The notes under the pieces: model-generated
Told to the model about the DNA's origin: nothing
What the model saw: only the letters and a program-made list of their open reading frames with translations
The model's database searches: none
Made by a program: the position numbers and the translations under genes
Shown here: positions 6,871-61,411 of the stretch, one piece after another
Numbering within the stretch: the first letter of the stretch is position 1
Layout of the letters: each line of letters opens with the position of its first letter
Source of the DNA: a virus
Virus record (IMG/VR): IMGVR_UViG_3300044620_001243
Reading direction: 5' to 3' (one strand)
Length of the DNA: 64,000 bases

Positions 6871-8016
6871 ATGAACAATTTAGATAAAAAATACATAGCA
6901 CTCCTACAAGACATACTTGATAATGGAGTAGAAAAGAAAGACAGGACAGGTACGGGGACTCTATCAGTATTCGGTAGACAAATCCGTCATTCTATGAAAG
7001 ATGGTTTCCCACTATTAACTACAAAGAAGATGTATTTCAAAGGAATTGTAACTGAATTGTTATGGTTCTTGCGTGGCGACACAAACATCAAATTCCTTGT
7101 TGATAATGATTGTCATATTTGGGATGGGGACGCATACAAAAACTATACCAAAAAAATGACATACCACCCAGAAGAAAATTGGTTAGATGATGGAATAGGT
7201 GGGAAAACTTATCGTCAACTCACACAAGAAGAATTCATTAACAAAATCAAGACAGATGATGAGTTTGCTAAGAAGTGGGGGTCGCTCGGGCCCGTGTATG
7301 GTAAGCAATGGAGAAGTTGGAGTAAATTAGAACTTACTGAGGTTGGTAAAGAATTATCTGAAATTTGGGATGGTAGAACACATACTAAACTTGATTTTCC
7401 GATAGACCAAATCGCAAACCTAATCAACGACCTTAAAACAAACCCAGACTCAAGACGATTGATGGTTAGTGCTTGGAATGTTGGAGAATTAGACCAAATG
7501 GTTCTTCCTCCTTGTCACTACAGCTTTCAAGTTTATACAAGAGAGTTGAGTTTACTAGAAAGATATGAACTGATGAAAAAATTAGATAATTGGGTGTCGG
7601 TTCACTACAAAGAGCCTAAGACAATGGAGTATATGGATAAACATAATATCCCAACCAGAGCAATCTCATTAATGTATAACGCCAGAAGCCAGGACGTACC
7701 ATTAGGAACGCCCTTCAACATAGCCTCCTATGCACTACTCTTGGAAATAATTGCAAAGATGGTTAATATGGTTCCTGATGAATTGATTACTAATATGGGG
7801 GATTGTCATATCTACCTCAATCAAATTGAAGGTATTAAAGAACAATTGACAAGAGAACCTTACACACTGCCAAAATTATTGGGAAAGGATGAATATTATT
7901 ACTTAATGGATTTGGATATTCCTTTCTCTGAAAAAATTGATGCATTCAAACCCGATTTTTGGAAATTGGAAAACTACCAATCTCACCCAGCAATTAAATT
8001 ACCATTATCAAATTAA
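6871..8016 (+). CDS. thyA: thymidylate synthase (ThyA), long form with extra insertions
   Basis: DRTGTGT, GFPLLTTKK, LGPVYGKQWRSW, DSRRLMVSAWN, catalytic LPPCH, PFNIASYALL, GDCHIY; 381 aa versus about 264 aa for E. coli ThyA. Confidence 0.9.
   Translation: MNNLDKKYIALLQDILDNGVEKKDRTGTGTLSVFGRQIRHSMKDGFPLLTTKKMYFKGIVTELLWFLRGDTNIKFLVDNDCHIWDGDAYKNYTKKMTYHPEENWLDDGIGGKTYRQLTQEEFINKIKTDDEFAKKWGSLGPVYGKQWRSWSKLELTEVGKELSEIWDGRTHTKLDFPIDQIANLINDLKTNPDSRRLMVSAWNVGELDQMVLPPCHYSFQVYTRELSLLERYELMKKLDNWVSVHYKEPKTMEYMDKHNIPTRAISLMYNARSQDVPLGTPFNIASYALLLEIIAKMVNMVPDELITNMGDCHIYLNQIEGIKEQLTREPYTLPKLLGKDEYYYLMDLDIPFSEKIDAFKPDFWKLENYQSHPAIKLPLSN
7991..8016 (+). repeat. thyA 3'-end repeat, copy 1
   Basis: CAATTAAATTACCATTATCAAATTAA. 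Confidence 0.6.
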
Positions 8017-8526: not shown

Positions 8527-9099
8527 ATGAGTTTAACAAATTACGCAAAAAAAGAATTACAGACCGCCGGTTTCTTTGATGAAGATTCCGATTACGGGGG
8601 TTTAATTGGAGAGGCTGTAATGGAACTTATTGAAGTGTTCGATAAACAAGGACACTCGGGTATGTCTGCTCCTTATGTTGCTTCAATCTTTAACAAACTT
8701 GCCAACTTTGAACCTTTACTACCTATTACAGGTAAAGATGAAGAATGGGGAGATGTTAAGGATTTGGAAAGTGGAAAACCTTGGTATCAAAACAGGAGAT
8801 GTTCTGCTTTATTTAAAGATGGGAAGGATGGAAAACCCTACTTCATACACGCAATTATTAAAAGAGACCAAAATGGGAGTTGTTGGAGTGGAATGGCGTG
8901 GTTAAATGAAGAAGATTACAAATCAGGCGATAGAAGTAAAATGGTTGGAAAGAAGGGGTATGTTAAATCATTTCCTTTTGTTCCTAAAACATTTTACATT
9001 GATGTTAAGGATGTTGAGGTAGGAAAAGATGATTGGGAATCATTTGTTGTCGACCCATCACAATTGGAAGAGGTGTGGGAGTATTATGATAAGGATTAA
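8527..9099 (+). CDS. hypothetical protein
   Basis: 190 aa ORF; no motif recognised. Confidence 0.55.
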   Translation: MSLTNYAKKELQTAGFFDEDSDYGGLIGEAVMELIEVFDKQGHSGMSAPYVASIFNKLANFEPLLPITGKDEEWGDVKDLESGKPWYQNRRCSALFKDGKDGKPYFIHAIIKRDQNGSCWSGMAWLNEEDYKSGDRSKMVGKKGYVKSFPFVPKTFYIDVKDVEVGKDDWESFVVDPSQLEEVWEYYDKD

Positions 9100-10139: not shown

Positions 10140-10787
10140 ATGGCATATTTAAATCACAATTTACCTTTAACATCCTGTCTAATTAGAAATGAATTTTTAT
10201 ACAACCACGAAAAGGGACATGGAGAATATACCGTCGCAAATATGCATTCTGTGGCATCAGTGGAGGGTATGGTACCATTATTCGAAGCCTTTTTAGAAAA
10301 TGGTGTAAATTGGACTCGAAGACCGATTCATGCTTTTTGTTGGAAAAAAGATGCAGAAGTATTACCACTAACCGAACATGTATATTGGGATTCTTTTAGT
10401 CCGTACATTGATGTTCAAGTTAGGGCAAGGTTGTATCCACTCAGTGCTGAGTTAATTTCAATCACGGGAGTGAAAAGAAGAGGTGTTTATATGTTCACAC
10501 TTGACTGGTCTCATGAAAATAAAACCATGTTAGATACAAATTTTTCAGAAACAACTGAACACAAATGTGGACATATGTTCAAGATGGATAATGGCAATTA
10601 TTTTATTTACCCAAATAATCGAATTTTGTGGATAGATAAGGCATTTACATTTAAAAGAATAGACAAAAATCCTGGATTTAAAATAGATAGGACAATATAC
10701 ACGGTTGATTCCAATTCAGATTATTTCACGGATGAGAATTATATCACAAATTTTGAAAAAAATCCAAACACCAATGATAAAAGTTAA
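10140..10787 (+). CDS. hypothetical protein
   Basis: 215 aa ORF. Confidence 0.55.
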   Translation: MAYLNHNLPLTSCLIRNEFLYNHEKGHGEYTVANMHSVASVEGMVPLFEAFLENGVNWTRRPIHAFCWKKDAEVLPLTEHVYWDSFSPYIDVQVRARLYPLSAELISITGVKRRGVYMFTLDWSHENKTMLDTNFSETTEHKCGHMFKMDNGNYFIYPNNRILWIDKAFTFKRIDKNPGFKIDRTIYTVDSNSDYFTDENYITNFEKNPNTNDKS

Positions 10788-11139
10788 AACTATAATTAAA
10801 CTATCACCAGGTAAAGGAGTTGGATTATTTGCTTTAGAAAATATTATGAAAGGTCAATTAATTTACGATGAGGGAAGTTATGAAAAAATATTTCATAAAG
10901 ATAATCTGTCAAATTTAAACCAACATGAAATAGATTATTATGAAAATTATTCTTGGCGTGTTGGTGATTATATTTACCTTTCTACTGACAATACTATGTA
11001 CATAAATCATTCAAATGAACCAAATATAGATGGTATGAGTGGACGAGCGTTGAAAAATATTAAAATTGGAGAAGAATTAACTGAAGATTATTCAACATTT
11101 GATGCGGATTTTAATGATTACATCGAAACTTACATTTAA
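10774..11139 (+). CDS. SET-domain protein (putative lysine methyltransferase)
   Basis: GKGVGLFA, YINHSNEPN (NHSxxPN motif) and ELTEDY; start moved to ATG 10774. Confidence 0.6.
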   Translation: MIKVKTIIKLSPGKGVGLFALENIMKGQLIYDEGSYEKIFHKDNLSNLNQHEIDYYENYSWRVGDYIYLSTDNTMYINHSNEPNIDGMSGRALKNIKIGEELTEDYSTFDADFNDYIETYI

Positions 11140-13846: not shown

Positions 13847-13893
13847 AATAATTTTATTAATTTTGTGATATTTATAAATAAAAAAATATCACT

Positions 13894-15225
13894 ATGAAAA
13901 TGAACTTTTTCAACAGATTTCTAAGTTTTGTAAATAAAAAAAACCATAACAAAGAAAGGGCAAAAAAAATAGAAGAACTAAGTAAAAAAATTACATTACT
14001 TGAGCCCGTAGTTGCGGTGGTACCTGTCGTGGAAGAAACACCTGTTGTAGAAGAAATACCGGTAATTGAAGAAACACCTGTCGTGGAGGAACCCGTTGTA
14101 GAAGAGGTACCAGTAATTGAAGAGACACCTGTAGTTGAAGAAACACCTGTTGTAGAAGAACCTGTCGTGGAGGAAACACCTGTTGTAGAAGAAACACCTG
14201 TTGTAGAAGAGGTACCAGTAGTTGAAGAAGTACCTGTTGTAGAAGAGGTACCAGTAATTGAAGAAACACCTGTCGTGGAGGAACCTGTTGTAGAAGAGGT
14301 ACCGGTAATTGAAGAAACACCTGTTGTAGAAGAACCTGTCGTGGAGGAAACACCTGTTGTAGAAGAACCTGTCGTGGAGGAAACACCTGTTGTAGAAGAA
14401 ACACCTGTTGTAGAAGAGGTACCAGTAGTTGAAGAAGTACCTGTTGTAGAAGAGGTACCAGTAATTGAAGAAACACCTGTTGTAGAAGAACCTGTCGTGG
14501 AGGAAACACCTGTTGTAGAAGAACCTGTCGTGGAGGAAACACCTGTTGTAGAAGAAACACCTGTTGTAGAAGAGGTACCAGTAGTTGAAGAAGTACCTGT
14601 TGTAGAAGAGGTACCAGTAATTGAAGAGACACCTGTAGTTGAAGAAACACCTGTTGTAGAAGAACCTGTCGTGGAGGAAACACCTGTTGTAGAAGAAACA
14701 CCTGTTGTAGAAGAGGTACCAGTAGTTGAAGAAGTACCTGTTGTAGAAGAGGTACCAGTAATTGAAGAAACACCTGTCGTGGAGGAACCTGTTGTAGAAG
14801 AGGTACCGGTAATTGAAGAAACACCTGTTGTAGAAGAACCTGTCGTGGAGGAAACACCTGTTGTAGAAGAACCTGTCGTGGAGGAAACACCTGTTGTAGA
14901 AGAAACACCTGTTGTAGAAGAGGTACCAGTAGTTGAAGAAGTACCTGTTGTAGAAGAGGTACCAGTAATTGAAGAAACACCTGTTGTAGAAGAACCTGTC
15001 GTGGAGGAAACACCTGTTGTAGAAGAACCTGTCGTGGAGGAAACACCTGTTGTAGAAGAAACACCTGTTGTAGAAGAGGTACCAGTAGTTGAAGAAGTAC
15101 CTGTTGTAGAAGAGGTACCAGTAATTGAAGAGACACCTGTAGTTGAAGAAACACCTGTTGTAGAAGAACCTGTCGTGGAGGAAACACCTGTTGTAGAAGA
15201 ACCTGTGGTAGAGGAGACACCATAA
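13894..15225 (+). CDS. acidic PVVEE-repeat protein
   Basis: 443 aa; 35-aa basic N-terminus, then uninterrupted E(T/V)PV(V/I)EE and EPVVEE units to the stop codon. Confidence 0.6.
   Translation: MKMNFFNRFLSFVNKKNHNKERAKKIEELSKKITLLEPVVAVVPVVEETPVVEEIPVIEETPVVEEPVVEEVPVIEETPVVEETPVVEEPVVEETPVVEETPVVEEVPVVEEVPVVEEVPVIEETPVVEEPVVEEVPVIEETPVVEEPVVEETPVVEEPVVEETPVVEETPVVEEVPVVEEVPVVEEVPVIEETPVVEEPVVEETPVVEEPVVEETPVVEETPVVEEVPVVEEVPVVEEVPVIEETPVVEETPVVEEPVVEETPVVEETPVVEEVPVVEEVPVVEEVPVIEETPVVEEPVVEEVPVIEETPVVEEPVVEETPVVEEPVVEETPVVEETPVVEEVPVVEEVPVVEEVPVIEETPVVEEPVVEETPVVEEPVVEETPVVEETPVVEEVPVVEEVPVVEEVPVIEETPVVEETPVVEEPVVEETPVVEEPVVEETP
14040..15225 (+). repeat. 504-bp higher-order tandem repeat (about 2.3 copies) built from 15/18-nt PVVEE units
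   Basis: Landmark strings recur at +504 (14107/14611, 14247/14751, 14454/14958); the blocks compared by eye were identical. Confidence 0.8.
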
Positions 15226-15255
15226 AGATTTTTTTATTTTACAGTAAAAACTTTT

Positions 15256-34021: not shown

Positions 34022-34446
34022 AACAATACTTAGAGTGGCTTGAAAAACAAATTGACTTTTATTTAGAGGATAAAACGATGCAAAGAGAACATTGGGCTTT
34101 TTGTAAGGCATACGAGAAGTTCAAAAGCCTTGAAACGACCGCTGAATCAGAAGAACTCACACCCTACATTGAATACTACTCCAACGGAAATGTATCTATT
34201 AAAGGACAATTGAACTCCAAAGGACAAGAAGAAGGTCTTTGGGAGTGGTTCTATCCAAACGGAAACATCGAATGGAGAACCCCATACAAGGAGGGTAAGA
34301 TGGATGGAATTGAGGAGCGGTTTGATAAACAAGGAAACATCAAATGGAGAATCCCATACAAAGAGGGAAGGAGGATGGGATTGAGGAGGAATTTGATGAA
34401 CGAGGAAACATCACCGAAACCCATATTTGGAAAGATGGAGAACTAA
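34018..34446 (+). CDS. MORN/YwqK-type repeat protein, frameshifted at its last repeat
   Basis: Repeats YYSNGN..G.W.WFYPNGNIEWRTPYKEGKMDGIEE; after about 34368 the conserved repeat continues in another frame (ending 34454). Confidence 0.55.
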   Translation: MKQYLEWLEKQIDFYLEDKTMQREHWAFCKAYEKFKSLETTAESEELTPYIEYYSNGNVSIKGQLNSKGQEEGLWEWFYPNGNIEWRTPYKEGKMDGIEERFDKQGNIKWRIPYKEGRRMGLRRNLMNEETSPKPIFGKMEN

Positions 34447-37006: not shown

Positions 37007-38032
37007 ATGAAAAAACTAGAATTAACAAAAGACGAATTGGAAAAACTTTATTATCTCCCCCCAAAGGATGTTGAGAAAGAAACAGAATTCCAAATAACCT
37101 ATCGAATGGGTAGAAACTCATTAGTGTTGGAGTTGATAAAAAAGATAGATGAGGAACTCACACCCTACATTGAATACCACGACAACGGAAATGTGTGGAT
37201 TAAAGGACAAGAGAACTCCGTAGGACAACGAGAAGGCATTTGGGAGTATTTCTGGGTGAACGGAAACATCGAAAGGAGAATCCCTTTTAAAGAGGGTAAG
37301 GTGGACGGTATTCAGGAGGTTTTCTATCCAAACGGGAACATCGATTTTAGAACCCCATTCAAAGATGGTAATATGGATGGAATTCAGGAGTGGTTTGATG
37401 AACAAGGAAACATCACCAAAACCACTCTATGGAAAAATGGTGAAGTAATTGAAGAAACTGAACCCGAACTCACACCATACGTTGAATACCACGACAACGG
37501 AAATGTAGCGGTAAAAGGACAAAAGAACTCCGTAGGACAGGAAGAAGGTATTTGGGAGTTCTTCTATTCAAACGGAAATATCCAATATTCAAACGGAAAT
37601 ATCCAATGTAGAACCCCATACAAAGAGGGTAAGGCGGATGGTATTCAGGAGGTTTTCTATGAAAGCGGAAACATCCATTGGAGAACCCCATACAAAGAGG
37701 GTAAGAGGGATGGAATTGAGGAGTGGTTCTATGAAAACGGAAACATCGAATGGAGAACCCCATACAAGGAGGGTAAGATGGATGGAATTGAGGAGCGGTT
37801 TGATAAACAAGGAAACATCAAATGGAGAATCCCATACAAAGAGGGAAAACTGATTGAAGAAACTAAACCCAAACCACAACCTGACCCACAACTAATTGAT
37901 TTTATGGCAATGAGATACAGACATGACTTTGGGTTTTTGGATGAAAAACACAAAGAATCCATCAGAATAACAATGAAACAACTTTGGGAAGAAGTTGTTG
38001 GTCTTGGATTTTATAAACCAAAATCAAAATAA
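37007..38032 (+). CDS. MORN/YwqK-type repeat protein
   Basis: 341 aa; about 9 tandem roughly 23-aa repeats (G.W..F..NGNI..R.P.K.GK.DGI.E.F). Confidence 0.7.
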   Translation: MKKLELTKDELEKLYYLPPKDVEKETEFQITYRMGRNSLVLELIKKIDEELTPYIEYHDNGNVWIKGQENSVGQREGIWEYFWVNGNIERRIPFKEGKVDGIQEVFYPNGNIDFRTPFKDGNMDGIQEWFDEQGNITKTTLWKNGEVIEETEPELTPYVEYHDNGNVAVKGQKNSVGQEEGIWEFFYSNGNIQYSNGNIQCRTPYKEGKADGIQEVFYESGNIHWRTPYKEGKRDGIEEWFYENGNIEWRTPYKEGKMDGIEERFDKQGNIKWRIPYKEGKLIEETKPKPQPDPQLIDFMAMRYRHDFGFLDEKHKESIRITMKQLWEEVVGLGFYKPKSK

Positions 38033-43430: not shown

Positions 43431-44411
43431 ATGAAAACAAAAAAAACTCAATTTGTAAATCTTTATGACGTATACAAAATAATTTTTAGTGATGATAAAA
43501 CTAAATATATTGATATGTTGTCAAGAATTTCAACTAAAAGTATTGAAAACGTTGAATTAATCAACTTACGAGAACATTTACTATCGTATGGTATTGGCGT
43601 TGATGTTTTAGATAAAATGTCAAATGTTGATTTATTGTTTCTTCATTCTGTTATGGATGGGATATTTCGTTATCACATGAAACTTGATAAGCAAGAAATT
43701 CAAACCGTAAGGAAGTTTATTGAATACAATGAGAGAGGTTTAATTGCAAATAATGATGTGTCCACATATAAAGATTTTAAAGAATTAGAAGATTCTGTTA
43801 GAATTGCAAATCTCAAAAGTCTTGATAAAGAAATGAGTAAAGAAATAAAAGAAATTTATTCTGACGATGAATGGTTTGTTTTAAGACCACTCACCACTTT
43901 ATCTGGTGAAAAATATGGATACGGTACTAAATGGTGCACAACCATGAATTCTGAATATTTTTTAAGATATTCACGAAATGGTATTTTGATTTACATAATC
44001 AATACAAAGACAGGAAAAAAAGTTGCATGTCATTCCTCTTTGGTAGAAGAAAATTCTACTTCTTTTTGGAATGAAGCAGATAATAGGGTGGACTCGATTG
44101 ACACAAATTTACCCGATTTTATTCTTGAAAAATTAAGAGTTGAACTTAAAAGTGGGGTAGACAATTTCAGTTTTCTTTCTGAAGAAAAACAAAAAATTGA
44201 ATTAGATAAAATTCATATAACCCTTAAAGAAAGTCATGAAATTGTAGAAAATATGGCAATGGATGAAATAATGGGGGAGGATGAGATGATTCCGACTCCA
44301 ATAAATCTGCATGAAAATATACGAAGGATGATAAATGGTGGTGGGGTGACGGGATTAAGAGGAAATGAATACGAACCCACGGAACAGAGGGAAGAAATTA
44401 GTGAAGAATAA
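43431..44411 (+). CDS. hypothetical protein
   Basis: 326 aa; promoter 43400-43407 upstream; no motif recognised (GTKWCTT block noted). Confidence 0.55.
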   Translation: MKTKKTQFVNLYDVYKIIFSDDKTKYIDMLSRISTKSIENVELINLREHLLSYGIGVDVLDKMSNVDLLFLHSVMDGIFRYHMKLDKQEIQTVRKFIEYNERGLIANNDVSTYKDFKELEDSVRIANLKSLDKEMSKEIKEIYSDDEWFVLRPLTTLSGEKYGYGTKWCTTMNSEYFLRYSRNGILIYIINTKTGKKVACHSSLVEENSTSFWNEADNRVDSIDTNLPDFILEKLRVELKSGVDNFSFLSEEKQKIELDKIHITLKESHEIVENMAMDEIMGEDEMIPTPINLHENIRRMINGGGVTGLRGNEYEPTEQREEISEE

Positions 44412-44439
44412 GAAATACCACGGTTTATTGGATAAAATT

Positions 44440-44604
44440 ATGCAACCAAAAGAATCAAAAACAAATACCCATTTTCAATTAAGTTTGATAAAATCTCTTT
44501 TAAGGATATTAGGATGTATTTATCTATTCTTTGGGTGTACAAGTATGTTTGTAATTATTTTCATATTTGCAGAAATTCTTGGAATTTTAGAAGAAATTTT
44601 GTAG
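44440..44604 (+). CDS. small membrane protein
   Basis: 54 aa from ATG 44440; C-terminal TM helices. Confidence 0.35.
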   Translation: MQPKESKTNTHFQLSLIKSLLRILGCIYLFFGCTSMFVIIFIFAEILGILEEIL

Positions 44605-44628
44605 TTTGAATTTTTTTTCGTATATTTG
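44598..44628 (+). promoter_or_regulatory. Bacteroidota-type promoter at the head of the RNA array
   Basis: TTTG, 19 nt, TATATTTG; tRNA-Met starts at 44654. Confidence 0.55.
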
Positions 44629-44653
44629 TATTCTGAATATGAAAATAAACAAT

Positions 44654-44727
44654 AGCGGGGTGGTGGCAGATGGTAGCCCGCCAGGCTCATAACCTGGAGG
44701 TCGTAGGTTCGAGTCCTACCCCCGCAA
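44654..44727 (+). tRNA. tRNA-Met (CAU), initiator-like
   Basis: Hand-folded cloverleaf colinear with E. coli tRNA-fMet (AGCGGGG..CCAGG-CTCATAA-CCTGG-AGGTC-GTAGG-TTCGAGT-CCTAC-CCCCGCA-A); A1/A72 mismatch; one bulged U in the D stem; starts about 25 nt after the -7 box at 44621-44628. Confidence 0.75.
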
Positions 44728-44791
44728 CCGTATAGTTTTTGTTCTTTGACATCTTGGGAATTAAAAGTAAAAGTCGAGAGACTTAAAAATT

Positions 44792-44901
44792 AGTCAGGTG
44801 GCGGAATTGGTAGACGCAAGTGAGAATAGTAATTGCGCTGATGTAGCGGCAGATGCAGTAAGTTATTATTCATACAGGTTCGAGTCCTGTCCTGACTACC
44901 A
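44792..44901 (+). ncRNA. tRNA-Leu-like shell RNA 2
   Basis: Consensus ends (AGTCAGGTGGCGGAATTGGTAGACGC ... ACAGGTTCGAGTCCTGTCCTGACTACCA); 56-nt insert forms a rod GAATAGTAA/TTATTATTC + TTGC/GCAG + GCTG/CGGC; no 5-7-5 anticodon arm. Confidence 0.6.
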
Positions 44902-45008
44902 AAGAAACAAGTAAAACGCAAACGCACAGTCCCTTGATGCATCAGGTGAGGCGCACACTGTATACTGGATGACCTCTGTTTCTTTTTTAATCAGTCAGGT
45001 GGCGGAAT
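44871..45008 (+). repeat. 138-bp exact duplication, copy 1 (T arm + acceptor + spacer + next 5' half)
   Basis: Identical by eye to 45339-45476. Confidence 0.8.
44902..44992 (+). ncRNA. structured 91-nt spacer RNA candidate (copy 1 of 2)
   Basis: AAAGAAACA (from 44901, sharing the terminal A of the preceding CCA)/TGTTTCTTT 9-bp closing stem, internal ACAGT/ACTGT and GAGG/CCTC pairings, palindrome TGATGCATCA; identical copy at 45370-45460. Confidence 0.3.
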
Positions 45009-45101
45009 TGGATAGACGCATTGAGGAATCTAAACTTGGTAGCATTTGTTAGATTTAATAGTAATCCTCCTTCCTTACAGGTTCGACTCCTGTCCTGACT
45101 A
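44993..45101 (+). ncRNA. tRNA-Leu-like shell RNA 3
   Basis: Consensus ends; 57-nt insert with GAGGA/TCCTC and ATCTAA/TTAGAT stems. Confidence 0.6.
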
Positions 45102-45267
45102 CGACAGTTAGCAGATAATACTTGGTAGTTCTTGTAACGTCTGACTATGCGTGAGGTGGTTTTATAACTTTCCACCAGCTGGTCCAAAACTAAAAGTTAA
45201 TACAGGTTTAATAACGGGGTGAAGGAAAGTCTAACTAACAAGTACTTCACTACCTACTGTAAAAATT

Positions 45268-45369
45268 AGTCAGGTGACGAAATTGGTAGACGTGCCACGA
45301 ATAAAACTAAGTGGTGGAGAAACAGCTTTCAGGCACTCCATACAGGTTCGAGTCCTGTCCTGACTACCA
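45268..45369 (+). ncRNA. tRNA-Leu-like shell RNA 4
   Basis: Ends AGTCAGGTGACGAAATTGGTAGACGT ... CCTGACTACCA; 48-nt insert with CCAC/GTGG and GGAG/CTCC hairpins. Confidence 0.6.
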
Positions 45370-45476
45370 AAGAAACAAGTAAAACGCAAACGCACAGTCC
45401 CTTGATGCATCAGGTGAGGCGCACACTGTATACTGGATGACCTCTGTTTCTTTTTTAATCAGTCAGGTGGCGGAAT
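45339..45476 (+). repeat. 138-bp exact duplication, copy 2
   Basis: Identical by eye to 44871-45008; offset 468 bp. Confidence 0.8.
45370..45460 (+). ncRNA. structured 91-nt spacer RNA candidate (copy 2 of 2)
   Basis: Identical to 44902-44992. Confidence 0.3.
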
Positions 45477-45558
45477 GGTAGACGCACTGGACAGGCGATG
45501 CATTTAAAACAGAAATAAGCCCAGTCGGTACTTACAGGTTCGAATCCTGTCCTGACTA
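45461..45558 (+). ncRNA. tRNA-Leu-like shell RNA 5
   Basis: Consensus ends; 48-nt insert with ACTGG/CCAGT + GGC/GCC around a 22-nt loop. Confidence 0.6.
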
Positions 45559-45926
45559 CAAATCTTAGGAGTAATTAACCTAAGACTGAGAGGTTCGAAA
45601 CTCTCGATTGGCTATGGTGTAATGGGCACAGAGAAACGGAGTACGAAAGGGGTTACGGGAATTTTCCCGCAAACATCAGAAACGGGACTCAGGATTATGG
45701 TTCGAATCCATATTAGTCAACAAGCCGTCTTTTTTTCTTGTCCGCCGTGGACGTGGATTGTTGAGACGTAAAAGTAACAATCGATTGATTAGAGAACGGT
45801 AGGATACAGGTTCACTAGACGAAGGTAGAAGTTTTTTTTTGATAGATGGGTTTGAGTTCTTTATAACAACAAACCAACTATAATTCAGTAGGGACAAATG
45901 GGAGCGGCTTACTCCAGTCCCGAAAT

Positions 45927-46085
45927 AGTCAGGTGGCGGAATTGGTAGACGCTATGAAATCATGTTTTAAGATTGAACGGGTAGGCAGACGTAACATATA
46001 GGTAAAAGAGTGTTATCGCCGAATACACTTATAAGGGTCCTATGAAAAAACTTCAATCATACAGGTTCAAGTCCTGTCCTGACTA
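45927..46085 (+). ncRNA. tRNA-Leu-like shell RNA 6 (largest insert)
   Basis: Consensus ends (T loop TTCAAGT); 108-nt insert with GATTGAA/TTCAATC closing stem and nested helices. Confidence 0.55.
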
Positions 46086-46328
46086 CACGTTCCGAAACAG
46101 ACAACGGATAGTTCCACTATGAACGATGAGAAACAGGGTGATGTCCTGTATTAGTTATCGCCTCCCGAATGCGGTCGGGATAGGTTGACCACCTAAACAT
46201 CAGCAATGTGAACGGTCTATTTCTAACTCACCTACGTTTGTAAGACAACATAGAAGTGACGAGACGGGAAACTCGTCGTGAGGACATCCAAGACACCTGT
46301 AAGTTGGATAAATTAGGGTGTTATTTTT

Positions 46329-46451
46329 AGTCAGGTGTGGGTAAAAATGCGCTAACTGGAAACCCACTGAAAGCGAAAGCAAAGTCGAGGTCTAAATGCG
46401 CACTATGGCCGAGGTAATGGCGAGATACAGGTTCAAGTCCTGTCCTGACTA
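46329..46451 (+). ncRNA. tRNA-Leu-like shell RNA 7 (D arm replaced)
   Basis: AGTCAGG-TG, then GTGGGT/ACCCAC hairpin instead of the D arm, GC-GAAA-GC hairpin, consensus T arm and CCTGACT-A. Confidence 0.5.
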
Positions 46452-46596
46452 CAAAGACAATGGTTTTCCCCATTCAACGGATGTCGACAATCCAGAATGG
46501 AATCGGAATTCAGCACCCTCAGCCGAGGCGCCTCGTAAAACTACGATTAAGCTGTTAAGATTGGAGCGAGACGGGTACTCCATCATTGTCTTATTT

Positions 46597-46668
46597 GGTC
46601 GGTTCATCTAGAGGTTAGGATACAAGATTTTCATTCTTGTCACATGGGTTCGATTCCCATACCGACTA
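46597..46668 (+). tRNA. tRNA-Glu (UUC)
   Basis: GGTCGGT/ACCGACT acceptor, D arm ATCT-AGAGGTTA-GGAT, anticodon arm CAAGA-TTTTCAT-TCTTG, T arm ATGGG-TTCGATT-CCCAT, A73. Confidence 0.85.
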
Positions 46669-46843
46669 CCTTGGAGGTATAGGGGTAAACCCTTGAGGCG
46701 AAGTACAAGCCATAGTCACTGAACTTAAACTGACCTCCAACCAAATTAGAAGTGTCGCAATACGCGTTTCAATCTAATTGATAGACGTATCAATGAAGAT
46801 GTTCGAGGGTGAAAATCCCAAGCTTCTAATCCTCCATTCTTAG

Positions 46844-46938
46844 TGTTATGTGGTTAAAACACGTTAACTCTTACATCGCCTGATTAGCGCTAATCCGAAT
46901 GTAAGACGAGTAAGTTGGTTCGAATCCAACAGAATGGA
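46844..46938 (+). ncRNA. tRNA-like RNA of a second lineage with rod-like anticodon arm
   Basis: Acceptor CCATTCT/AGAATGG (7 bp), D arm GTGT-TATGTGGTTAAA-ACAC, T arm GTTGG-TTCGAAT-CCAAC, A73; 50-nt rod TTACAT/ATGTAA + palindrome GATTAGCGCTAATC. Confidence 0.55.
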
Positions 46939-47216
46939 CAATGAGTAAGAGATACTCAGAGTCTTTGGTCTAAGACTTAAACAATAGACTCGCAGAATGT
47001 CTACGGCGTGAGTGGGACATCATGGGAACAAAGAAGAGTCACACACCTTCTCCCAGTAGTGTTGACAGGTTTTTATGTGGTAAGACACTAATGAAAAAGA
47101 CTCGTTCTATGGGGTACTTATCTGGAGTATCAAACAAGTGTGAGTGATATGGTTCTCGAACAGACAGAGAAACCCGTTAAAATCTACCCGTCTGGAATCT
47201 CAGGATGGGGAAACAT

Positions 47217-47319
47217 AGTCAGGTGGCGGAGTGGGCTAACGCTAACTTGGAAGAGTCTGAGGAGTGGTAACCAAGTACCTATACTCTGATGACCGCAGGT
47301 TCGAATCCTGTCCTGACTA
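47217..47319 (+). ncRNA. tRNA-Leu-like shell RNA 8
   Basis: AGTCAGG-TG-GCGGAGTGGGCTAACGC ... GCAGG-TTCGAAT-CCTGT-CCTGACT-A; 52-nt insert with ACTTGG/CCAAGT stem; loop AGAGT complementary to downstream ACTCT. Confidence 0.6.
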
Positions 47320-47337
47320 CAAAAATAAATTAAAATT

Positions 47338-47598
47338 ATGTTTATAGAAAGATTTTTTAACCCCTATGTGTCATCTCACGAAAGGGTATTATATGAGAAT
47401 AAAGAAGCAATTGAACATTGTTTGAAATATCATACATGGATTAGACATTATTCATTTGAAGGTGATGAATATATCAAAAATGTTAATGGTAAATTAGTTT
47501 GGAATGATGGTAGTAAAGTTGATAAAAGAAAATTACCTAAAAAAGGAAAAGGATGGGGCAGATATTCAAGTGAACTTTATAATTTGTGTTCTTTTTAA
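47338..47598 (+). CDS. hypothetical protein (cassette between tRNA-like elements)
   Basis: 86 aa ORF starting 18 nt after element 47217-47319 and ending 7 nt before element 47606. Confidence 0.5.
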   Translation: MFIERFFNPYVSSHERVLYENKEAIEHCLKYHTWIRHYSFEGDEYIKNVNGKLVWNDGSKVDKRKLPKKGKGWGRYSSELYNLCSF

Positions 47599-47605
47599 AT
47601 TAAAT

Positions 47606-47751
47606 AGTCAGGTGGCGGAATTGGTTAGACGCTGTAAAAGTAAGATATGGGAATTGTGCACTCGGTAAACCTACGCACAAGGCTTAGATAGTTGTGCAAC
47701 AGCGGAAAGTCTTACAAAACTATCTTACAGGTTCGAATCCTGTCCTGACTG
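47606..47751 (+). ncRNA. tRNA-Leu-like shell RNA 9
   Basis: Consensus ends (G73); 94-nt insert with AAGATA/TATCTT and TTGTGC/GCACAA stems. Confidence 0.55.
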
Positions 47752-47764
47752 CAAAATTAAAGAT

Positions 47765-47908
47765 ATGTTTAGAACATTAAATTATATTTGGAAATTGTTT
47801 TGGAAAAGACCTAGTAGAAGAGTATTTTTTATATTTTTTAGAATGCTAAAAACGGAAATTAAGTGTTTAATGTTGACTGGATACTCAACAGATGAATTAC
47901 TAAATTAG
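47765..47908 (+). CDS. hypothetical small protein (cassette between tRNA-like elements)
   Basis: 47-codon ORF found by eye; its TAG stop overlaps the first 2 nt of element 47907. Confidence 0.3.
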   Translation: MFRTLNYIWKLFWKRPSRRVFFIFFRMLKTEIKCLMLTGYSTDELLN

Positions 47909-48033
47909 TCAGGTGGCGGAATTGGTAGACGCACGATTTATTGTTTAACGATGTGGCTCAATGTCCTAATGGATGAGAGAAAATAAACAGAGAAATATAC
48001 CACATACAGGTTCGAATCCTGTCCTGACTACCA
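47907..48033 (+). ncRNA. tRNA-Leu-like shell RNA 10
   Basis: Consensus ends with encoded CCA; 73-nt insert with crossing complementarities TTTATT/AATAAA and ATGTGG/CCACAT. Confidence 0.6.
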
Positions 48034-48085
48034 AGTTAACCCACTAAGACTAGAAACGGGTGACACCTCGGAAAGACGAGGACAT

Positions 48086-48170
48086 AGTCAGGTGGCGGAA
48101 TGGATAGACGCGGCCCTATCAGGGGTAGAGGCGAAAGAAACTCATACAGGTTCGAATCCTGTCCTGACTA
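48086..48170 (+). ncRNA. tRNA-Leu-like shell RNA 11 (tRNA-sized, non-canonical anticodon loop)
   Basis: 85 nt; best arm CCCTA-TCAGGGG-TAGAG has a C/A mismatch and C at position 33; looks like a damaged Leu(CAG) loop. Confidence 0.5.
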
Positions 48171-48278
48171 CACAGTGTTGGCTTCAAGGACCTATTAGGG
48201 AAGTACACTTAAATAAAACAAGAACGGGGAAAACACCGAATCTGCAGATAACGGCGAAGTACCAACGAAAGGTGAAAC

Positions 48279-48352
48279 GACCTCATAGCTTAATTGGTAA
48301 AGCACCTGGCTTTTAACCAGGGGAGTCCAGAGTTCGAGTCTCGGTGGGGTCA
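48279..48352 (+). tRNA. tRNA-Lys (UUU)
   Basis: GACCTCA/TGGGGTC acceptor, D arm GCTT-AATTGGTA-AAGC, anticodon arm CCTGG-CTTTTAA-CCAGG, T loop TTCGAGT, A73. Confidence 0.8.
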
Positions 48353-48517
48353 CAAAGGTTGATTGGGGAATGATGGTGACAAAGACTTGAGAGTTTATGC
48401 CGGTCGTTACCATCGGAGTTGGGAGGTATAAACCTAAGCAATGCCAATCGTAAAAGGAGTTGTCCACTCGACCATCTTCTCCTTTCCTTTTTTTTAAAAA
48501 AATTCTTAAAGACACAT

Positions 48518-53524: not shown

Positions 53525-54256
53525 ATGGATAAAGATAAATTAAAAAATATCATTACCAGAATTGGTCAAATAAATCCAAAATATGAATTGGAAAATATTC
53601 TGCCTCAATCGCCAAAATTAATTAAATTAATGCCTAAATTAATTCAACTCATGGGTGACCCATTAGAAGATGCTCAATTGGCTGCAGTTAAAAAAGATGG
53701 TTTAACAATCGAATATATCGTTAAAGGTGGAATCACCCCATCAGAAGATGTTCAATTGGCTGCAGTTAACGAAAATGGTTATGCAATCCAATATATCATT
53801 AATGGTGGAATCGTCCCATCAGAAGGTGTTCAATTGGCTGCAGTTAACAAAAAGGGTTATGCAATCTCAAATATCATTAAAGGTGGAATCGTCCCATCAG
53901 AAGATGTTCAATTGGCCGCAGTTAACGAAGAGGGTTATGCAATAGGATATATCATTGATGGTGGAATCGTCCCATCAGAAGGTGTTCAATTGGCCGCAGT
54001 TAATAATAATGGTTATGCAATCCAACATATCATTAATGGTGGAATCGTTCCATCAGAAGGTGTTCAATTGGCCGCAGTTAACAAAAAGGGTTTATCAATC
54101 GAATATATCATTGATGCCGGAATCATTCCATCAGAAGATGTTCAATTTGGAGCAGTTAATTATAATGGTTTATCAATCCAATATATCATTGATGCTGGAA
54201 TCACCCCATCAGAACGTGTAAAAGAACTTGCTCGTTCCAAGGGTGTTCAAATATAA
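53525..54256 (+). CDS. DUF4116-like repeat protein, paralog 1 of 3
   Basis: Seven roughly 30-aa repeats GGI.PSEDVQLAAVN.NGYAIQYII; shared N- and C-termini with the next two genes. Confidence 0.6.
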   Translation: MDKDKLKNIITRIGQINPKYELENILPQSPKLIKLMPKLIQLMGDPLEDAQLAAVKKDGLTIEYIVKGGITPSEDVQLAAVNENGYAIQYIINGGIVPSEGVQLAAVNKKGYAISNIIKGGIVPSEDVQLAAVNEEGYAIGYIIDGGIVPSEGVQLAAVNNNGYAIQHIINGGIVPSEGVQLAAVNKKGLSIEYIIDAGIIPSEDVQFGAVNYNGLSIQYIIDAGITPSERVKELARSKGVQI

Positions 54257-54261
54257 ATAAC

Positions 54262-54897
54262 ATGGATAAAGATAAATTAAAAAATATCATTACCAGAATT
54301 GGTCAAATAAATCCAAAATATGAATTGGAAAATATTCTGCCCCAATCACCAAAATTAATTCAATTCATGGATAATCCATCAGAAGATGTTCAATTGGCCG
54401 CAGTTAAAAAAGATGGTTTAACAATCTATTATATCATTGAAGCCGGAATCGTCCCATCTGAAGATGTTCAATTGGCTGCAGTTAATAATAATGGTTCATC
54501 AATCTATCAAATCATATATGATGCTGGAATCACCCCATCAGAAGATGTTCAATTGGTTGCAGTTAAAAAAGTGGGCGACTTAATCTATGATATCATTAAA
54601 GTCGGAATAACCCCATCAGAAGATGTTCAATTGGCTGCGGTTAATAATAATGGTTCATCAATAGGATATATCATTAACGGTGGAATCACCCCATCAGAAG
54701 ATGTTCAATTGGCCGCTGCTAATCAAAATGGTAGGGTAATCCAATATATCATTAAAGCTGGAATCACCCCATCAGAAGATGTTCAATTGGCCGCAGTTAA
54801 TAATAATGGTTATGCAATCCAACATATCATTAACGCCCGAATCACCCCATCAGAACGTGTAAAAGAACTTGCTCGTTCCAAGGGTGTTAATATATAA
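54262..54897 (+). CDS. DUF4116-like repeat protein, paralog 2 of 3
   Basis: Same architecture; N-terminus MDKDKLKNIITRIGQINPKYELENI identical. Confidence 0.6.
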   Translation: MDKDKLKNIITRIGQINPKYELENILPQSPKLIQFMDNPSEDVQLAAVKKDGLTIYYIIEAGIVPSEDVQLAAVNNNGSSIYQIIYDAGITPSEDVQLVAVKKVGDLIYDIIKVGITPSEDVQLAAVNNNGSSIGYIINGGITPSEDVQLAAANQNGRVIQYIIKAGITPSEDVQLAAVNNNGYAIQHIINARITPSERVKELARSKGVNI

Positions 54898-54902
54898 GTT
54901 AT

Positions 54903-55616
54903 ATGGATAAAGATAAATTAAAAAATATCATTACCAGAATTGGTCAAATAAATCCAAAATATGAATTGGAAAATATTGTGCAGCAAGCGCCACAATTAAT
55001 TCAATTCATGGATAATCCATCTGAAGAAATTCAATTGGCCGCGGTTGAAAAAGATGGTAAATATATAAAAAATATTATTGAAAGTGGAATCAAACCATCA
55101 GAAGATGTTCAATGGACAGCTGTTAATCAAGGTGGTCAGTCACTTTATTTTATCCTTGAAGCCGGAATCGTCCCATCTGAAGATGTTCAGTTGGCAGCGG
55201 TTAGAAGTAGAGGTTCGGCAATCCAATTTATCATTGAAGCTGGAATCATTCCATCAGAAGATGTTCAATGGTTTGCGGTTAACGAAAATGGTTATGTAAT
55301 CCAAGATATCATTGATGCCGGAATCACCCCATCAGAACGTGTTCAATTGGCCACAGTTAATTATAATGGTTTGTTAATCAAATATATCATTGATGTCGGA
55401 ATCACCCCATCAGAACGTGTTCAATTGGCTGCTGTTAATCAAAATGGTTTGTCAATCAAAGATATCATTGAAGCCGGAATCGTCCCATCTGAAGATGTTC
55501 AGTTGACTGCAGTTAGAAGTAGAGGTTCGGCAATCCAATTTATCATTTATAATGGTGGAATCAAACCATCAGAACGTGTAAAAGAACTTGCTCGTTCCAA
55601 GGGTATTAATATATAA
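54903..55616 (+). CDS. DUF4116-like repeat protein, paralog 3 of 3
   Basis: Same architecture; C-terminus PSERVKELARSKG.NI shared. Confidence 0.6.
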   Translation: MDKDKLKNIITRIGQINPKYELENIVQQAPQLIQFMDNPSEEIQLAAVEKDGKYIKNIIESGIKPSEDVQWTAVNQGGQSLYFILEAGIVPSEDVQLAAVRSRGSAIQFIIEAGIIPSEDVQWFAVNENGYVIQDIIDAGITPSERVQLATVNYNGLLIKYIIDVGITPSERVQLAAVNQNGLSIKDIIEAGIVPSEDVQLTAVRSRGSAIQFIIYNGGIKPSERVKELARSKGINI

Positions 55617-61264: not shown

Positions 61265-61405
61265 ATGAAAAATAAGTTAAAAACAATTTGGCATGATTTT
61301 TGGACTGACCCCCTATACTACATTGTAATTATGTCGTATATTGGTTTGCTTTTAATTATGTTAATAGTTAGTGTGGCTTGGTTTATCCAACCTTTAATAA
61401 AATAA
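61265..61405 (+). CDS. hypothetical small membrane protein (cassette)
   Basis: 46-codon ORF found by eye; same leader; stop 6 nt before the tRNA-Leu at 61412. Confidence 0.35.
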   Translation: MKNKLKTIWHDFWTDPLYYIVIMSYIGLLLIMLIVSVAWFIQPLIK

Positions 61406-61411
61406 CAAAAC

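What the first reader, a model, noticed from the sequence alone, without database searches (positions are those of the whole stretch)
13894..15225. 1.2-kb near-perfect higher-order repeat encoding an acidic PVVEE-repeat protein
Seen in sequence: after a 35-aa basic N-terminus, the ORF is nothing but E(T/V)PV(V/I)EE and EPVVEE units up to its stop codon. At the DNA level these 15- and 18-nt units form a 504-bp super-repeat, present about 2.3 times (14040-15225) and identical in the blocks I compared. Such identity implies very recent expansion or ongoing homogenisation. Copy number is likely to vary between virions, and the region is assembly-sensitive. Inference: it may be a proline/glutamate-rich extended spacer or entropic spring (PEVK-like). 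Its charge density also makes a nucleic-acid mimic possible.
Basis: partly seen in the sequence, partly recalled or inferred. Interest (0 to 1): 0.55.

Follow-up and report, generated by a model that had tools for sequence, protein, structure and literature searches.

The report
Hypervariable acidic repeat gene in phage
A small orphan gene of an uncultured large phage has grown to 443 codons through a near-perfect, fast-changing tandem repeat that encodes a probably disordered, extremely acidic Pro-Val-Val-Glu-Glu tail. It is a real example of a known kind of repeat protein, and its function is still unknown.

Summary
ORF 13894-15225 (+) encodes a unique basic 36-aa N-terminus followed by 70 units of 15 or 18 nt (PVVEE / xPV[V/I]EE). 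A 504-nt super-repeat is exactly identical over 603 nt (14095-14697 = 14599-15201), about 2.2 copies.

Variation among unit types falls mainly on third codon positions. That fits selection on the peptide in this frame.

The array is hypervariable. In ten other assemblies whose compared flanks are 97-100% identical, the same gene is 56, 206 or 266 aa, is N-gapped, or ends the contig. So the copy number in the window cannot be verified.

The N-terminus has no homologue among 1.84 billion representative proteins. Relatives at about 71% neighbour identity carry other genes in this slot. A Tad3 anti-defence gene lies 4.8 kb upstream.

The same phage clade has a core membrane protein with an acidic tail. 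In the closest lineage that tail is also a variable PVVEE array and shares codon quirks with this one, so it is a possible source.

TPVVEE-type stretches occur widely as linkers and tails on unrelated proteins. AlphaFold gives pLDDT 34.

Best reading: an accessory polyanionic disordered protein made and resized by slippage or unequal recombination. Its role (N-terminally tethered acidic brush, decoy, or none) is inferred only. New member of a known kind; moderate interest.

The parts
13865..13892 (+). Perfect 9-bp inverted repeat (GTGATATTT, 10-nt loop, AAATATCAC) that ends 1 nt before the start codon. It could be a terminator of the upstream lipoprotein gene or a hairpin that covers the translation start region. 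Its role is inferred only.
   Evidence: Read from the sequence. RNA fold of 13847-13905: -8.6 kcal/mol, z = -2.2. Listed by the inverted-repeat scan. A TAATTTTG box at 13858-13865 matches TANNTTTG, but that motif is not enriched in the window.
13894..15225 (+). Complete ORF of 443 codons plus stop. Predicted product is 49 kDa with calculated pI about 4.05.
   Evidence: It lies on the same strand as nearly all neighbouring genes.
13894..14001 (+). Unique N-terminal segment of 36 aa, net charge +7. Residues 3-16 could form an amphipathic helix (hydrophobic moment 0.56-0.71). Residues 23-36 have a short heptad-like I/L pattern.
   Evidence: The first 117 nt of the ORF (this segment plus the first three array codons) are 100% identical in five other assemblies. 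There is one A23V variant in L025. No homologue other than the 56-aa allele P0121 was found in 5.8 billion clusters or 1.84 billion representatives.
14002..15222 (+). Repeat array: 70 units of 15 or 18 nt encoding PVVEE / [T/V/I]PV[V/I]EE. Net charge is -139.
   Evidence: Among unit types, 5 of the 8 variable sites are third codon positions. Codon differences are 122 synonymous against 62 conservative (T/V/I, V/I) in the 18-nt units, and 18 against 0 in the 15-nt units.
14095..14598 (+). Super-repeat copy 1 (504 nt; 29 units, GHCICJKLMENOCICICJKLMCICICJKL, in register from 14107).
14599..15102 (+). Super-repeat copy 2, identical to copy 1.
   Evidence: exact run of 603 nt at lag 504.
15103..15201 (+). 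Partial third copy (99 nt, identical to the start of the super-repeat). It is followed by the unique last units P and Q (CCTGTGGTAGAGGAG ACACCATAA).
   Evidence: The same terminal units close the arrays in L019, L020, L022 and L024.

Best explanation
SHOWN
- This is a genuine protein-coding variable-number tandem repeat in a lineage-restricted accessory gene of an uncultured large phage. Relatives' contigs reach 288-335 kb.
- The gene consists of a unique 36-aa basic N-terminal segment followed by a Pro/Val/Glu array.
- The array has three nested levels: 15/18-nt units, 105-207-nt modules, and a 504-nt super-repeat.
- It differs in length and unit order between otherwise near-identical genomes (56 to 443 aa).
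- All changes are multiples of three bases. Unit variants differ almost only at wobble positions or by T/V/I swaps.

INFERRED, fairly safe
- The array is resized by replication slippage and unequal recombination between identical stretches. For example, the 206-aa allele equals the window allele minus 711 nt, with 134 nt of exact homology at the junction.
- The product is an intrinsically disordered, extended polyanion.

INFERRED, weak (about 0.25)
- The N-terminal basic amphipathic segment tethers the protein to the cytoplasmic face of the membrane or to a partner.
- The array then acts as a one-end-anchored acidic brush or tail whose length is freely tunable. Two arrangements are comparable: the core membrane protein of the same phage clade that carries an acidic or PVVEE tail, and FtsY, which has an N-terminal lipid-binding motif followed by an acidic A-domain.
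- The units may have been seeded from the tail of that membrane-protein gene.
For: Anatomy.

Coding frame:
- Wobble-biased variation among unit types.
- The only antisense frame with coincident wobble positions has no start codon ahead of the array.
- The gene is on the same strand as its neighbours.

Hypervariability against constant flanks:
- The compared flanks are 99.2-100% identical in L019-L024 and 97-98% identical in L033. L025 and L034 share the gene's 5' end.
- Resolved alleles are 206 aa (L022), 266 aa (a contig listed without DNA) and 56 aa (L033).
- L019-L021 and L025 have other unit orders.
- The 711-nt difference to L022 has a 134-nt homologous junction.

Accessory and orphan status:
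- The gene is absent from 18 related IMG/VR loci, where the slot holds a 103-aa membrane protein, a 184-aa 2H phosphoesterase or a nitroreductase-like gene.
- The N-terminus has no homologue.

Disorder: AlphaFold2 mean pLDDT 33.8 and the composition.

Use of the same peptide as a linker or tail elsewhere:
- Tails on FtsY, ribosomal proteins L17/S1/S2/S16, HU, ABC permeases and CHAP/M23 peptidases.
- A (TPVVEE)n stretch between the LysM and C-terminal domains of Enterococcus phage proteins.

Parallel within the clade:
- A conserved 159-aa membrane domain with an acidic tail occurs on the same contigs as the relatives.
- In the closest lineage the tail is a PVVEE array of 121-195 aa, while the membrane domain stays at least 90.6% identical.
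- The two arrays share unit DNA types and codon quirks: Thr is always ACA, and PVI is always CC[A/G] GTA ATT.

Anchor idea: hydrophobic moment of 0.56-0.71 for residues 3-16. For the FtsY alphaA1 motif plus acidic A-domain, see PMC5533587.
Against: - There is no expression or localisation data.
- AlphaFold2 does not confidently predict an N-terminal helix.
- The 56-aa allele shows that the phage tolerates almost no array. A long array is therefore not essential and may be neutral.
- The wobble-biased pattern could be inherited from a donor array rather than reflect selection in this gene.
- The 206-aa allele could be a de Bruijn-graph collapse through the 134-nt shared stretch, not a real allele. 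The window's own copy number is equally unverified.
- Resemblance of the N-terminus to FtsY N-termini is limited to an FF-basic motif and is not homology.
Confidence: 0.6

Rival explanations
1. Neutral runaway expansion. A tiny orphan ORF (about 56 codons, possibly born de novo or from a fragment) picked up a few PVVEE units. Slippage then inflated them. The acidic disordered product is merely tolerated, and the array has no function.
For: - A 56-aa allele exists in a 97-98% identical genome.
- The gene is absent from relatives.
- The N-terminus has no homologue anywhere.
- Length varies about eight-fold.
- Repeat-only 'de novo repeat peptides' are discussed for Borgs (PMC9879509).
Against: - Unit variants are almost purely synonymous or conservative.
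- There are no frame-breaking units in any allele.
- The N-terminus is identical across alleles.
- The same peptide unit is kept in a second gene of the clade.
Confidence: 0.25
2. Polyanionic decoy or nucleic-acid mimic. The tail sequesters basic host proteins (nucleoid proteins, restriction or other defence nucleases) or chaperones basic phage proteins. Array length would set its capacity.
For: - Net charge is -139.
- The gene sits in a variable accessory region with a Tad3 anti-Thoeris homologue 4.8 kb upstream (129.6 bits).
- In relatives, the same slot holds a 2H phosphoesterase with sub-threshold Acb1 similarity.
- Rapid variation is typical of genes that interact with the host.
Against: - There is no similarity to any known mimic family.
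- Known DNA mimics are folded (established knowledge), whereas this protein has no predicted fold.
- Charge spacing is about one per 10 Å when extended, against two per 3.4 Å for dsDNA (my calculation).
- The short allele is viable.
Confidence: 0.12
3. The higher-order structure or copy number is an assembly product. The real allele has one (or a different number of) 504-nt block(s), and the assembler traversed a graph cycle an arbitrary number of times.
For: - The duplicated stretch is exactly identical for 603 nt, longer than short reads.
- Of ten other assemblies, five break and two are N-gapped at the array.
- The exact 443-aa product is not on record elsewhere.
Against: - The array itself and its variability are real. 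The 56-aa allele is spanned by single k-mers of 141 nt (contig name k141_). Different unit orders are also read directly next to the unique flanks.
- Short-read assemblers normally collapse rather than duplicate exact repeats (general knowledge). Two full copies therefore suggest long-read or paired-end support, but this was not checked.
Confidence: 0.3
4. The repeat works at the DNA level, as an iteron or centromere-like array of protein-binding sites, or as a folded beta-helix (pentapeptide or hexapeptide type) rather than a disordered chain.
For: - There are tandem 15-18-bp units.
- Weak hexapeptide-like Pfam signal: LbH_EIF2B at 22.8 bits against a cut-off of 54.
Against: - The invariant bases are exactly codon positions 1 and 2, and the variable ones are wobble positions. 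That points to protein-level, not DNA-level, constraint.
- Mixed 5- and 6-residue units break any beta-helix register.
- There is no Pentapeptide or Hexapep hit above threshold.
- AlphaFold2 pLDDT is 33.8.
Confidence: 0.03

Closest known systems
Amino-acid tandem repeats (aaTRs) that create disordered regions in Borg extrachromosomal elements (Schoelmerich et al. 2023, PMC9879509)
   Same: - Near-perfect nucleotide tandem repeats inside ORFs.
- Unit lengths divisible by three.
- Rapid variation within populations.
- Products predicted to be disordered.
- Some proteins are almost entirely repeat.
- Homologous proteins carry repeats of similar composition.
   Different: - Here the element is a bacteriophage-like genome, not an archaeal Borg.
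- This is the only long near-perfect array in the 64-kb window; such repeats are not pervasive.
- The units are imperfect at the 15/18-nt level, and perfection appears only at the 504-nt level.
- The composition is purely acidic (P/V/E), not polyampholyte or P/T/S.
Acidic xPVVEE-type linkers and tails on bacterial and phage proteins (Pfam label LED_rpt, PF20854), for example the LysM-domain proteins of Enterococcus Schiekvirus phages
   Same: - The same hexapeptide is used. phiSHEF16 UMO76861 contains APVVEETPVVEETPVVEETPVVEETPVVEQ between the LysM and C-terminal domains.
- Similar tails occur on FtsY, ribosomal proteins L17/S1/S2/S16, HU, and CHAP and M23 peptidases.
   Different: Those stretches are short (about 30-200 aa) and join or extend folded domains. 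Here the array is 92% of the protein, and the only other part is a 36-aa orphan segment.
FtsY (bacterial SRP receptor): N-terminal alphaA1 lipid-binding motif plus acidic A-domain
   Same: - The architecture matches: a short basic/aromatic N-terminal motif followed by a long, poorly conserved, highly acidic region (PMC5533587).
- Some FtsY proteins carry PVVEE-like repeats in that region (P0030, P0096).
   Different: There is no NG GTPase domain and no sequence homology in the N-terminus. This is an analogy only.
Core membrane protein with an acidic tail in the same phage clade (P0006/P0016 family)
   Same: - It has a length-variable PVVEE array (121-195 aa) attached to a membrane-associating N-terminal module.
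- It shares unit DNA types and codon quirks with the window's array.
   Different: - Its N-terminal part is a conserved 159-aa hydrophobic, apparently multi-pass membrane domain, unrelated to the 36-aa segment here.
- That gene is conserved across the clade (80 loci), whereas this one is not.
Titin PEVK region
   Same: It is rich in Pro, Glu and Val, and is an extended, disordered, repetitive chain.
   Different: - PEVK has abundant Lys and 28-residue PPAK modules, and is anchored at both ends (established knowledge).
- This array has no Lys, has 5-6-residue units, gives no PPAK Pfam hit, and has a free C-terminus.
DNA-mimic anti-restriction proteins (Ocr, ArdA, Arn)
   Same: They are very acidic, phage-encoded, and found in accessory regions.
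   Different: Those are compact folded proteins that display carboxylates with B-DNA geometry (established knowledge). Here there is no fold, no homology and a much lower charge density.

Membership tests
Pfam PF20854 LED_rpt (acidic low-complexity repeat) | Score above Pfam's gathering threshold | tested here: met
   80.8 bits against a cut-off of 59, in 4 stretches. The label also sits on the acidic tails of unrelated proteins (CHAP, M23, L17, S1). It therefore marks composition and periodicity, not function. I could not find a description of the family.
Amino-acid tandem-repeat (aaTR) disordered proteins as defined for Borgs (PMC9879509) | Nucleotide tandem repeat inside an ORF, with unit length divisible by three | tested here: met
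   All 70 units are 15 or 18 nt.
Amino-acid tandem-repeat (aaTR) disordered proteins as defined for Borgs (PMC9879509) | Perfect or near-perfect repeats that vary within populations | tested here: met
   Exact 603-nt identity at lag 504. Alleles of 56, 206, 266 and 443 aa and several unit orders in contigs whose compared flanks are 97-100% identical. At the single-unit level the repeats are only about 71% matched.
Amino-acid tandem-repeat (aaTR) disordered proteins as defined for Borgs (PMC9879509) | The repeat region is intrinsically disordered | tested here: inconclusive
   AlphaFold2 on the single sequence gives mean pLDDT 33.8 with no confident element. The composition is V 35%, E 32%, P 16%. 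No dedicated disorder predictor was available.
Titin-type PEVK / PPAK repeats | Lys-rich 28-residue PPAK modules or polyE segments, with a Pfam PPAK hit | tested here: not met
   No PPAK hit. There is no Lys in the array. Units are 5-6 residues.
Beta-helix repeat proteins (pentapeptide repeats; hexapeptide left-handed beta-helix) | Regular 5- or 6-residue register, a family HMM hit, and a predicted beta-helix | tested here: not met
   Only LbH_EIF2B at 22.8 bits against a cut-off of 54. Units of 5 and 6 residues are interleaved. No fold is predicted.
FtsY / SRP receptor | NG GTPase domain (SRP54_N plus SRP54) | tested here: not met
   There are no such Pfam or NCBIfam hits. The protein ends in the array.
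DNA-mimic proteins (Ocr/ArdA/Arn type) | Homology to a known mimic family, or a fold that presents carboxylates with DNA-like spacing | tested here: not met
   No hit in Pfam, PHROGs with an assigned function, NCBIfam or PDB sequences. No fold is predicted.
DNA-mimic proteins (Ocr/ArdA/Arn type) | Binds and inhibits a DNA-binding enzyme | not testable with these tools
   This needs biochemistry.
TonB-type proline-rich spacer proteins | N-terminal transmembrane anchor, (EP)n(KP)n spacer and C-terminal TonB domain | tested here: not met
   There is no hydrophobic transmembrane stretch (mean Eisenberg hydrophobicity of the N-terminal windows is 0.30 or less), no KP half and no C-terminal domain.

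The most novel reading that the evidence does not exclude
The gene is a length-tunable polyanionic counter-defence or host-takeover factor. It would be a disordered 'charge sponge' tethered by its N-terminus. It would titrate basic host proteins (nucleoid proteins or defence nucleases) or shield a surface. Tandem-repeat slippage would give the phage population a standing range of capacities. That would be a disordered, repeat-encoded alternative to folded DNA mimics such as Ocr.
Probability: 0.1. Interest if true: 0.7.

Novelty: new member of a known kind. Interest (0 to 1): 0.35.

Why it matters
- It is a clean natural example of how quickly a coding tandem array can remodel a phage protein. 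Length changes eight-fold, and a 711-nt step sits next to compared flanks that differ at no more than 1 base in 6 kb.
- It shows how an orphan gene can be made almost entirely from repeat expansion.
- It marks a locus where metagenome assemblies of this phage systematically break or mis-size, so gene catalogues will mis-report it.
- If the array turns out to have a counter-defence or membrane role, it would add a disordered, repeat-encoded class to phage host-interaction factors.
- As it stands it is a descriptive case rather than a new mechanism.

Tried and rejected
1. Homology of the whole protein. It gave 574 hits, all driven by composition: acidic tails on unrelated proteins. None is an orthologue.
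2. Homology of the N-terminus alone. I used the word-indexed search, full HMMER against 1.84 billion representatives and tblastn/blastn against the related loci. Only the 56-aa allele of the same gene was found.
3. Derivation of the N-terminus from the 5' end of the clade's membrane-protein gene. Alignment scores are within the shuffle range, so this was rejected.
4. Exact-product look-up, and scans of viral contigs with the N-terminal DNA and with peptide patterns. Nothing was found, so the source of the window is not in those collections.
5. Genome scan for EETPVVEEPVVEE. It hit only five Clostridia MAGs and gave no host clue or donor gene.
6. tblastn against cultured phages. It was empty because of low-complexity masking. 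The DNA 'distant' search then found the Enterococcus phage linkers.
7. Sigma-70-type promoter and terminator scan and the TANNTTTG motif. Neither was above chance, so no promoter is claimed.
8. Antisense coding. The 410-aa antisense ORF (13991-15223) is a by-product of the repeat. The wobble-coincident antisense frame has no start codon.
9. PDB sequence search and NCBIfam. Nothing meaningful was found.
10. Literature searches for 'LED repeat' and PVVEE motifs. Nothing relevant was found.
11. Cluster look-up for other alleles. The 206-aa allele is not indexed.
Full report
**1. What is in the sequence**

The ORF 13894-15225 (+ strand, 443 aa) exists as described. It starts with a unique 36-aa segment, MKMNFFNRFLSFVNKKNHNKERAKKIEELSKKITLL, which has 10 K/R and 3 E.

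From codon 37 to the stop there are only repeat units: one PVVAV, then 69 units of PVVEE (15 nt) or [T/V/I]PV[V/I]EE (18 nt), then TP-stop. The 17 DNA unit types encode about six peptides. With one letter per DNA type, the array reads ABCDEF [GHCICJKLMENOCICICJKLMCICICJKL]x2 GHCIC PQ.

Autocorrelation peaks at lag 504. Identity at that lag is exact for 603 bases (14095-14697 = 14599-15201), which gives 2.2 copies.

Lower-order modules (CICJKL of 105 nt; lags 156 and 207) explain the Tandem Repeats Finder rows. No other long near-perfect array exists in the window. The other tandem repeats are 72-85% matched 24-aa and 26-aa domain repeats, plus one trivial 43-nt perfect two-copy repeat.

**2. 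Is it coding, and in which frame?**

- Among the unit types, 8 of 18 positions vary. Five of them are third codon positions, including the four-fold sites of Pro and the first Val.
- The three others give only T/V/I or V/I exchanges.
- Codon differences between 18-nt unit types are 122 synonymous against 62 conservative. Between 15-nt types they are 18 against 0.
- By my own binomial estimate, 10 of 13 allele steps at wobble sites has p of about 0.002 under uniform mutation.
- One antisense frame (…SSTTG…) shares the wobble positions. It is open from 13875 to 15233 but has no ATG, GTG or TTG before residue 427.
- The listed 410-aa antisense ORF is in a different frame with high peptide diversity (76 distinct 6-mers against 32 for the sense frame). 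It is a by-product of the repeat.
- The gene is co-oriented with almost all neighbours.
- Glu codon usage matches the rest of the window. Pro usage does not: CCT is 74% here against 24% elsewhere.
- No promoter or terminator could be called above chance.
- A perfect 9-bp hairpin ends 1 nt before the ATG.

**3. Product**

- Mass is 49 kDa and calculated pI about 4.05. Composition is V 35%, E 32%, P 16% and T 7%.
- Array net charge is -139 and N-terminus net charge is +7.
- AlphaFold2 on the single sequence gives mean pLDDT 33.8 with no confident element. This fits disorder, with the caveat that no alignment exists.
- Residues 3-16 have a hydrophobic moment of 0.56-0.71 with low mean hydrophobicity, so they could form a surface-seeking amphipathic helix. 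They do not look like a signal peptide or a transmembrane segment.
- The C-terminus is free (…EETP).

**4. Genomic setting**

The window looks like part of a large phage:

- almost all genes are on one strand;
- there are PHROG hits to a helicase and to an RNA ligase/tail-fibre attachment catalyst;
- there is a thymidylate synthase, a Tad3 anti-Thoeris homologue (8527-9099, 129.6 bits) and a SET-domain protein;
- ABC_membrane_3-like, PcfJ-like, Pyr_excise-like and M23 peptidase genes are present;
- a holin is annotated in the identical contig L019;
- several tRNAs are present.

Relatives in IMG/VR are contigs of up to 288-335 kb.

The gene lies between a conserved 460-aa lipoprotein-like gene (phrog_19967) and the PcfJ-like gene. 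In 18 related loci (67-72% identity in the lipoprotein) the repeat gene is absent. The slot holds a 103-aa membrane protein (with or without a basic 50-aa antisense ORF), a 184-aa 2H phosphoesterase with sub-threshold Acb1 similarity, or other genes. This is therefore a variable accessory slot.

**5. The same gene in other assemblies**

Ten further contigs carry the gene or its flanks.

| Assembly | State of the repeat gene |
|---|---|
| L022 | 206 aa, resolved |
| ENA+JGI contig (no DNA shown) | 266 aa, resolved |
| L033 | 56 aa, resolved |
| L019, L020 | scaffolds with N gaps inside the array |
| L021, L023, L024, L025, L034 | contig starts or ends inside the array |

- Compared flanks of L019-L024 are 99.2-100% identical to the window, and those of L033 are 97-98% identical. 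L025 and L034 share the gene's 5' end.
- The N-terminal 117 nt are identical in five loci. L025 has one A23V change.
- L022 (206 aa) equals the window allele minus units 16-56 (711 nt), with 134 nt of exact homology at the junction. This fits one unequal-recombination or slippage event. It also fits a de Bruijn-graph collapse.
- L033 (56 aa) has the N-terminus plus three units. It is a k141 contig, so single k-mers span the 51-nt array and both flanks. This allele is therefore real.
- L019-L021 begin A R H J G H J G…, and L025 begins ABCD followed by TPVVEE/TPVIEE units. These orders are read directly from the unique flank.

So the array really differs in both order and length between near-identical genomes. 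The locus also defeats most assemblies. The 2.2-copy count in the window cannot be verified, because the source of the window is not in the searchable collections.

**6. Relatives of the protein**

The whole-protein search gives only composition-driven hits. xPVVEE-like stretches appear as tails or linkers on ABC permeases, FtsY, ribosomal proteins L17/S1/S2/S16, HU, DnaX, and CHAP and M23 peptidases. The Pfam label LED_rpt (80.8 bits) and PHROGs 5070 and 7964 reflect the same thing.

In cultured phages, Enterococcus Schiekvirus LysM proteins use (TPVVEE)n as an interdomain linker.

The N-terminus alone has no homologue except the 56-aa allele. The exact motif EETPVVEEPVVEE occurs in only five Clostridia MAGs among 185,579 species genomes.

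**7. A second PVVEE gene in the clade**

One hit family (P0006, P0016 and others) has a 159-aa hydrophobic, apparently membrane-spanning domain followed by a PVVEE array of 121-195 aa. The membrane domain stays at least 90.6% identical across the family.

This membrane domain is a core gene of the clade. It was found in 80 IMG/VR loci, many on the very contigs that carry the lipoprotein homologue, about 26-33 kb away.

In most relatives the tail is acidic but not repetitive, and contains single EETPVV(D/E) motifs. Only the lineage closest to the window (L031, L036, L037) has it as an array.

That array shares some exact 18-nt unit types with the window's array. It also shares codon quirks: Thr is always ACA, and PVI is CC[A/G] GTA ATT. 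Overall the two arrays are about 70% identical at the DNA level.

This suggests, but does not prove, that the orphan gene's units came from that tail. The expected position of this gene is outside the window.

**8. Mechanism**

Shown:
- a translated-frame-constrained, hierarchically organised coding array;
- rapid change by gain and loss of whole units and modules;
- dispensability of most of the array (the 56-aa allele);
- accessory status of the gene.

Inferred with fair confidence:
- slippage and unequal recombination between identical stretches of 134-603 nt generate the variation;
- the product is a disordered, extended polyanion.

Inferred weakly:
- The N-terminal basic amphipathic segment tethers the chain to the membrane surface or to a partner, so that the array forms an acidic brush or tail. 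FtsY has a similar layout, with an alphaA1 lipid-binding motif followed by an acidic A-domain (PMC5533587). The clade's own membrane-anchored acidic-tail protein is a second parallel.

Rivals:
- a functionless tolerated expansion;
- a polyanionic decoy or mimic, for which the anti-defence neighbourhood gives mild support;
- a wrong copy number from assembly;
- a DNA-level or beta-helix role, which is disfavoured.

**9. Comparison with known systems and novelty**

The closest described phenomenon is the amino-acid tandem repeats of Borg elements: unit lengths divisible by three, rapid evolution, disordered products and some repeat-only proteins (PMC9879509). The peptide itself is a widespread acidic linker type.

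It is not titin-type PEVK, because it has no Lys, no PPAK modules and a free end. It is not a member of FtsY, TonB, the beta-helix repeat families or the known DNA-mimic families.

I class it as a new member of a known kind. The allelic range, the 504-nt perfect super-repeat and the orphan architecture are noteworthy. No new mechanism is demonstrated.

Noticed in passing
window 44400-48400 and 61400-63050: A tRNA cluster lies in a stretch with no ORF of 100 aa or more and a higher GC content (about 0.39). Rfam finds 10 tRNA-model hits, several of them abnormally long: 45461-45558 (98 nt), 47217-47319 (103 nt), 47907-48030 (124 nt) and 62329-62435 (107 nt). ARAGORN calls only 6 tRNAs. These may be tRNAs that carry an intron or insert.
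   Followed up: partly
window 48086-48171 and 46597-46670: The phage encodes tRNA-Pro with the unusual anticodon AGG (reads CCU) and tRNA-Glu(UUC). The PVVEE array uses CCT for 74% of its 70 Pro codons, against 24% in 43 other ORFs, and has 139 Glu codons. This may be coincidence or codon supply.
   Followed up: partly
window 8527-9099: Strong homologue of the anti-Thoeris protein Tad3 (Pfam PF25185, 129.6 bits), 4.8 kb upstream of the repeat gene. A SET-domain protein lies at 10705-11139.
   Followed up: partly
L001 7407-7961 and L011 7371-7928: In two relatives, the slot of the repeat gene holds a 184-185-aa 2H phosphoesterase with sub-threshold similarity to the anti-CBASS protein Acb1 (E = 1.2e-4, 22.3 bits against a cut-off of 27). 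This hints that the slot is a counter-defence hotspot.
   Followed up: partly
L003 7693-7845 (-) and L002 7686-7838 (-): A conserved, very basic 50-aa ORF (MAAGKSSKGKSSNASIKV…RGQGRRT) lies on the opposite strand between the small membrane-protein gene and the PcfJ-like gene in relatives.
   Followed up: no
window 34261-34413, 37262-37845, 57674-58590; 53659-55574: Several genes are built of diverged 72-nt (24-aa, GNI..PYKEGK.DG, MORN-like by eye) repeats and 78-nt (26-aa) repeats, at 72-85% match. They were not annotated further.
   Followed up: no
L021 1087-2928 versus window 6871-8016: The thymidylate synthase gene is interrupted by a NUMOD1 homing-endonuclease-type gene in one near-identical contig. 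It is intact in the window, so this is a mobile intron or intein-like insertion polymorphism.
   Followed up: no
L036-L115 (80 IMG/VR loci); expected about 15-20 kb upstream of the window start: A clade-wide core gene encodes a 159-aa hydrophobic membrane-type domain with no Pfam or PHROG match, followed by an acidic tail that is very diverse in length and sequence (69-370 aa). Many relatives keep a conserved motif in the tail (…AKDIVGEVSRVRLSxxDLxxLEKxL…PNE…).
   Followed up: partly
window 13865-13892: A perfect 9-bp inverted repeat ends 1 nt before the start codon of the repeat gene (RNA fold -8.6 kcal/mol, z = -2.2). It could be a terminator or a translational hairpin.
   Followed up: partly
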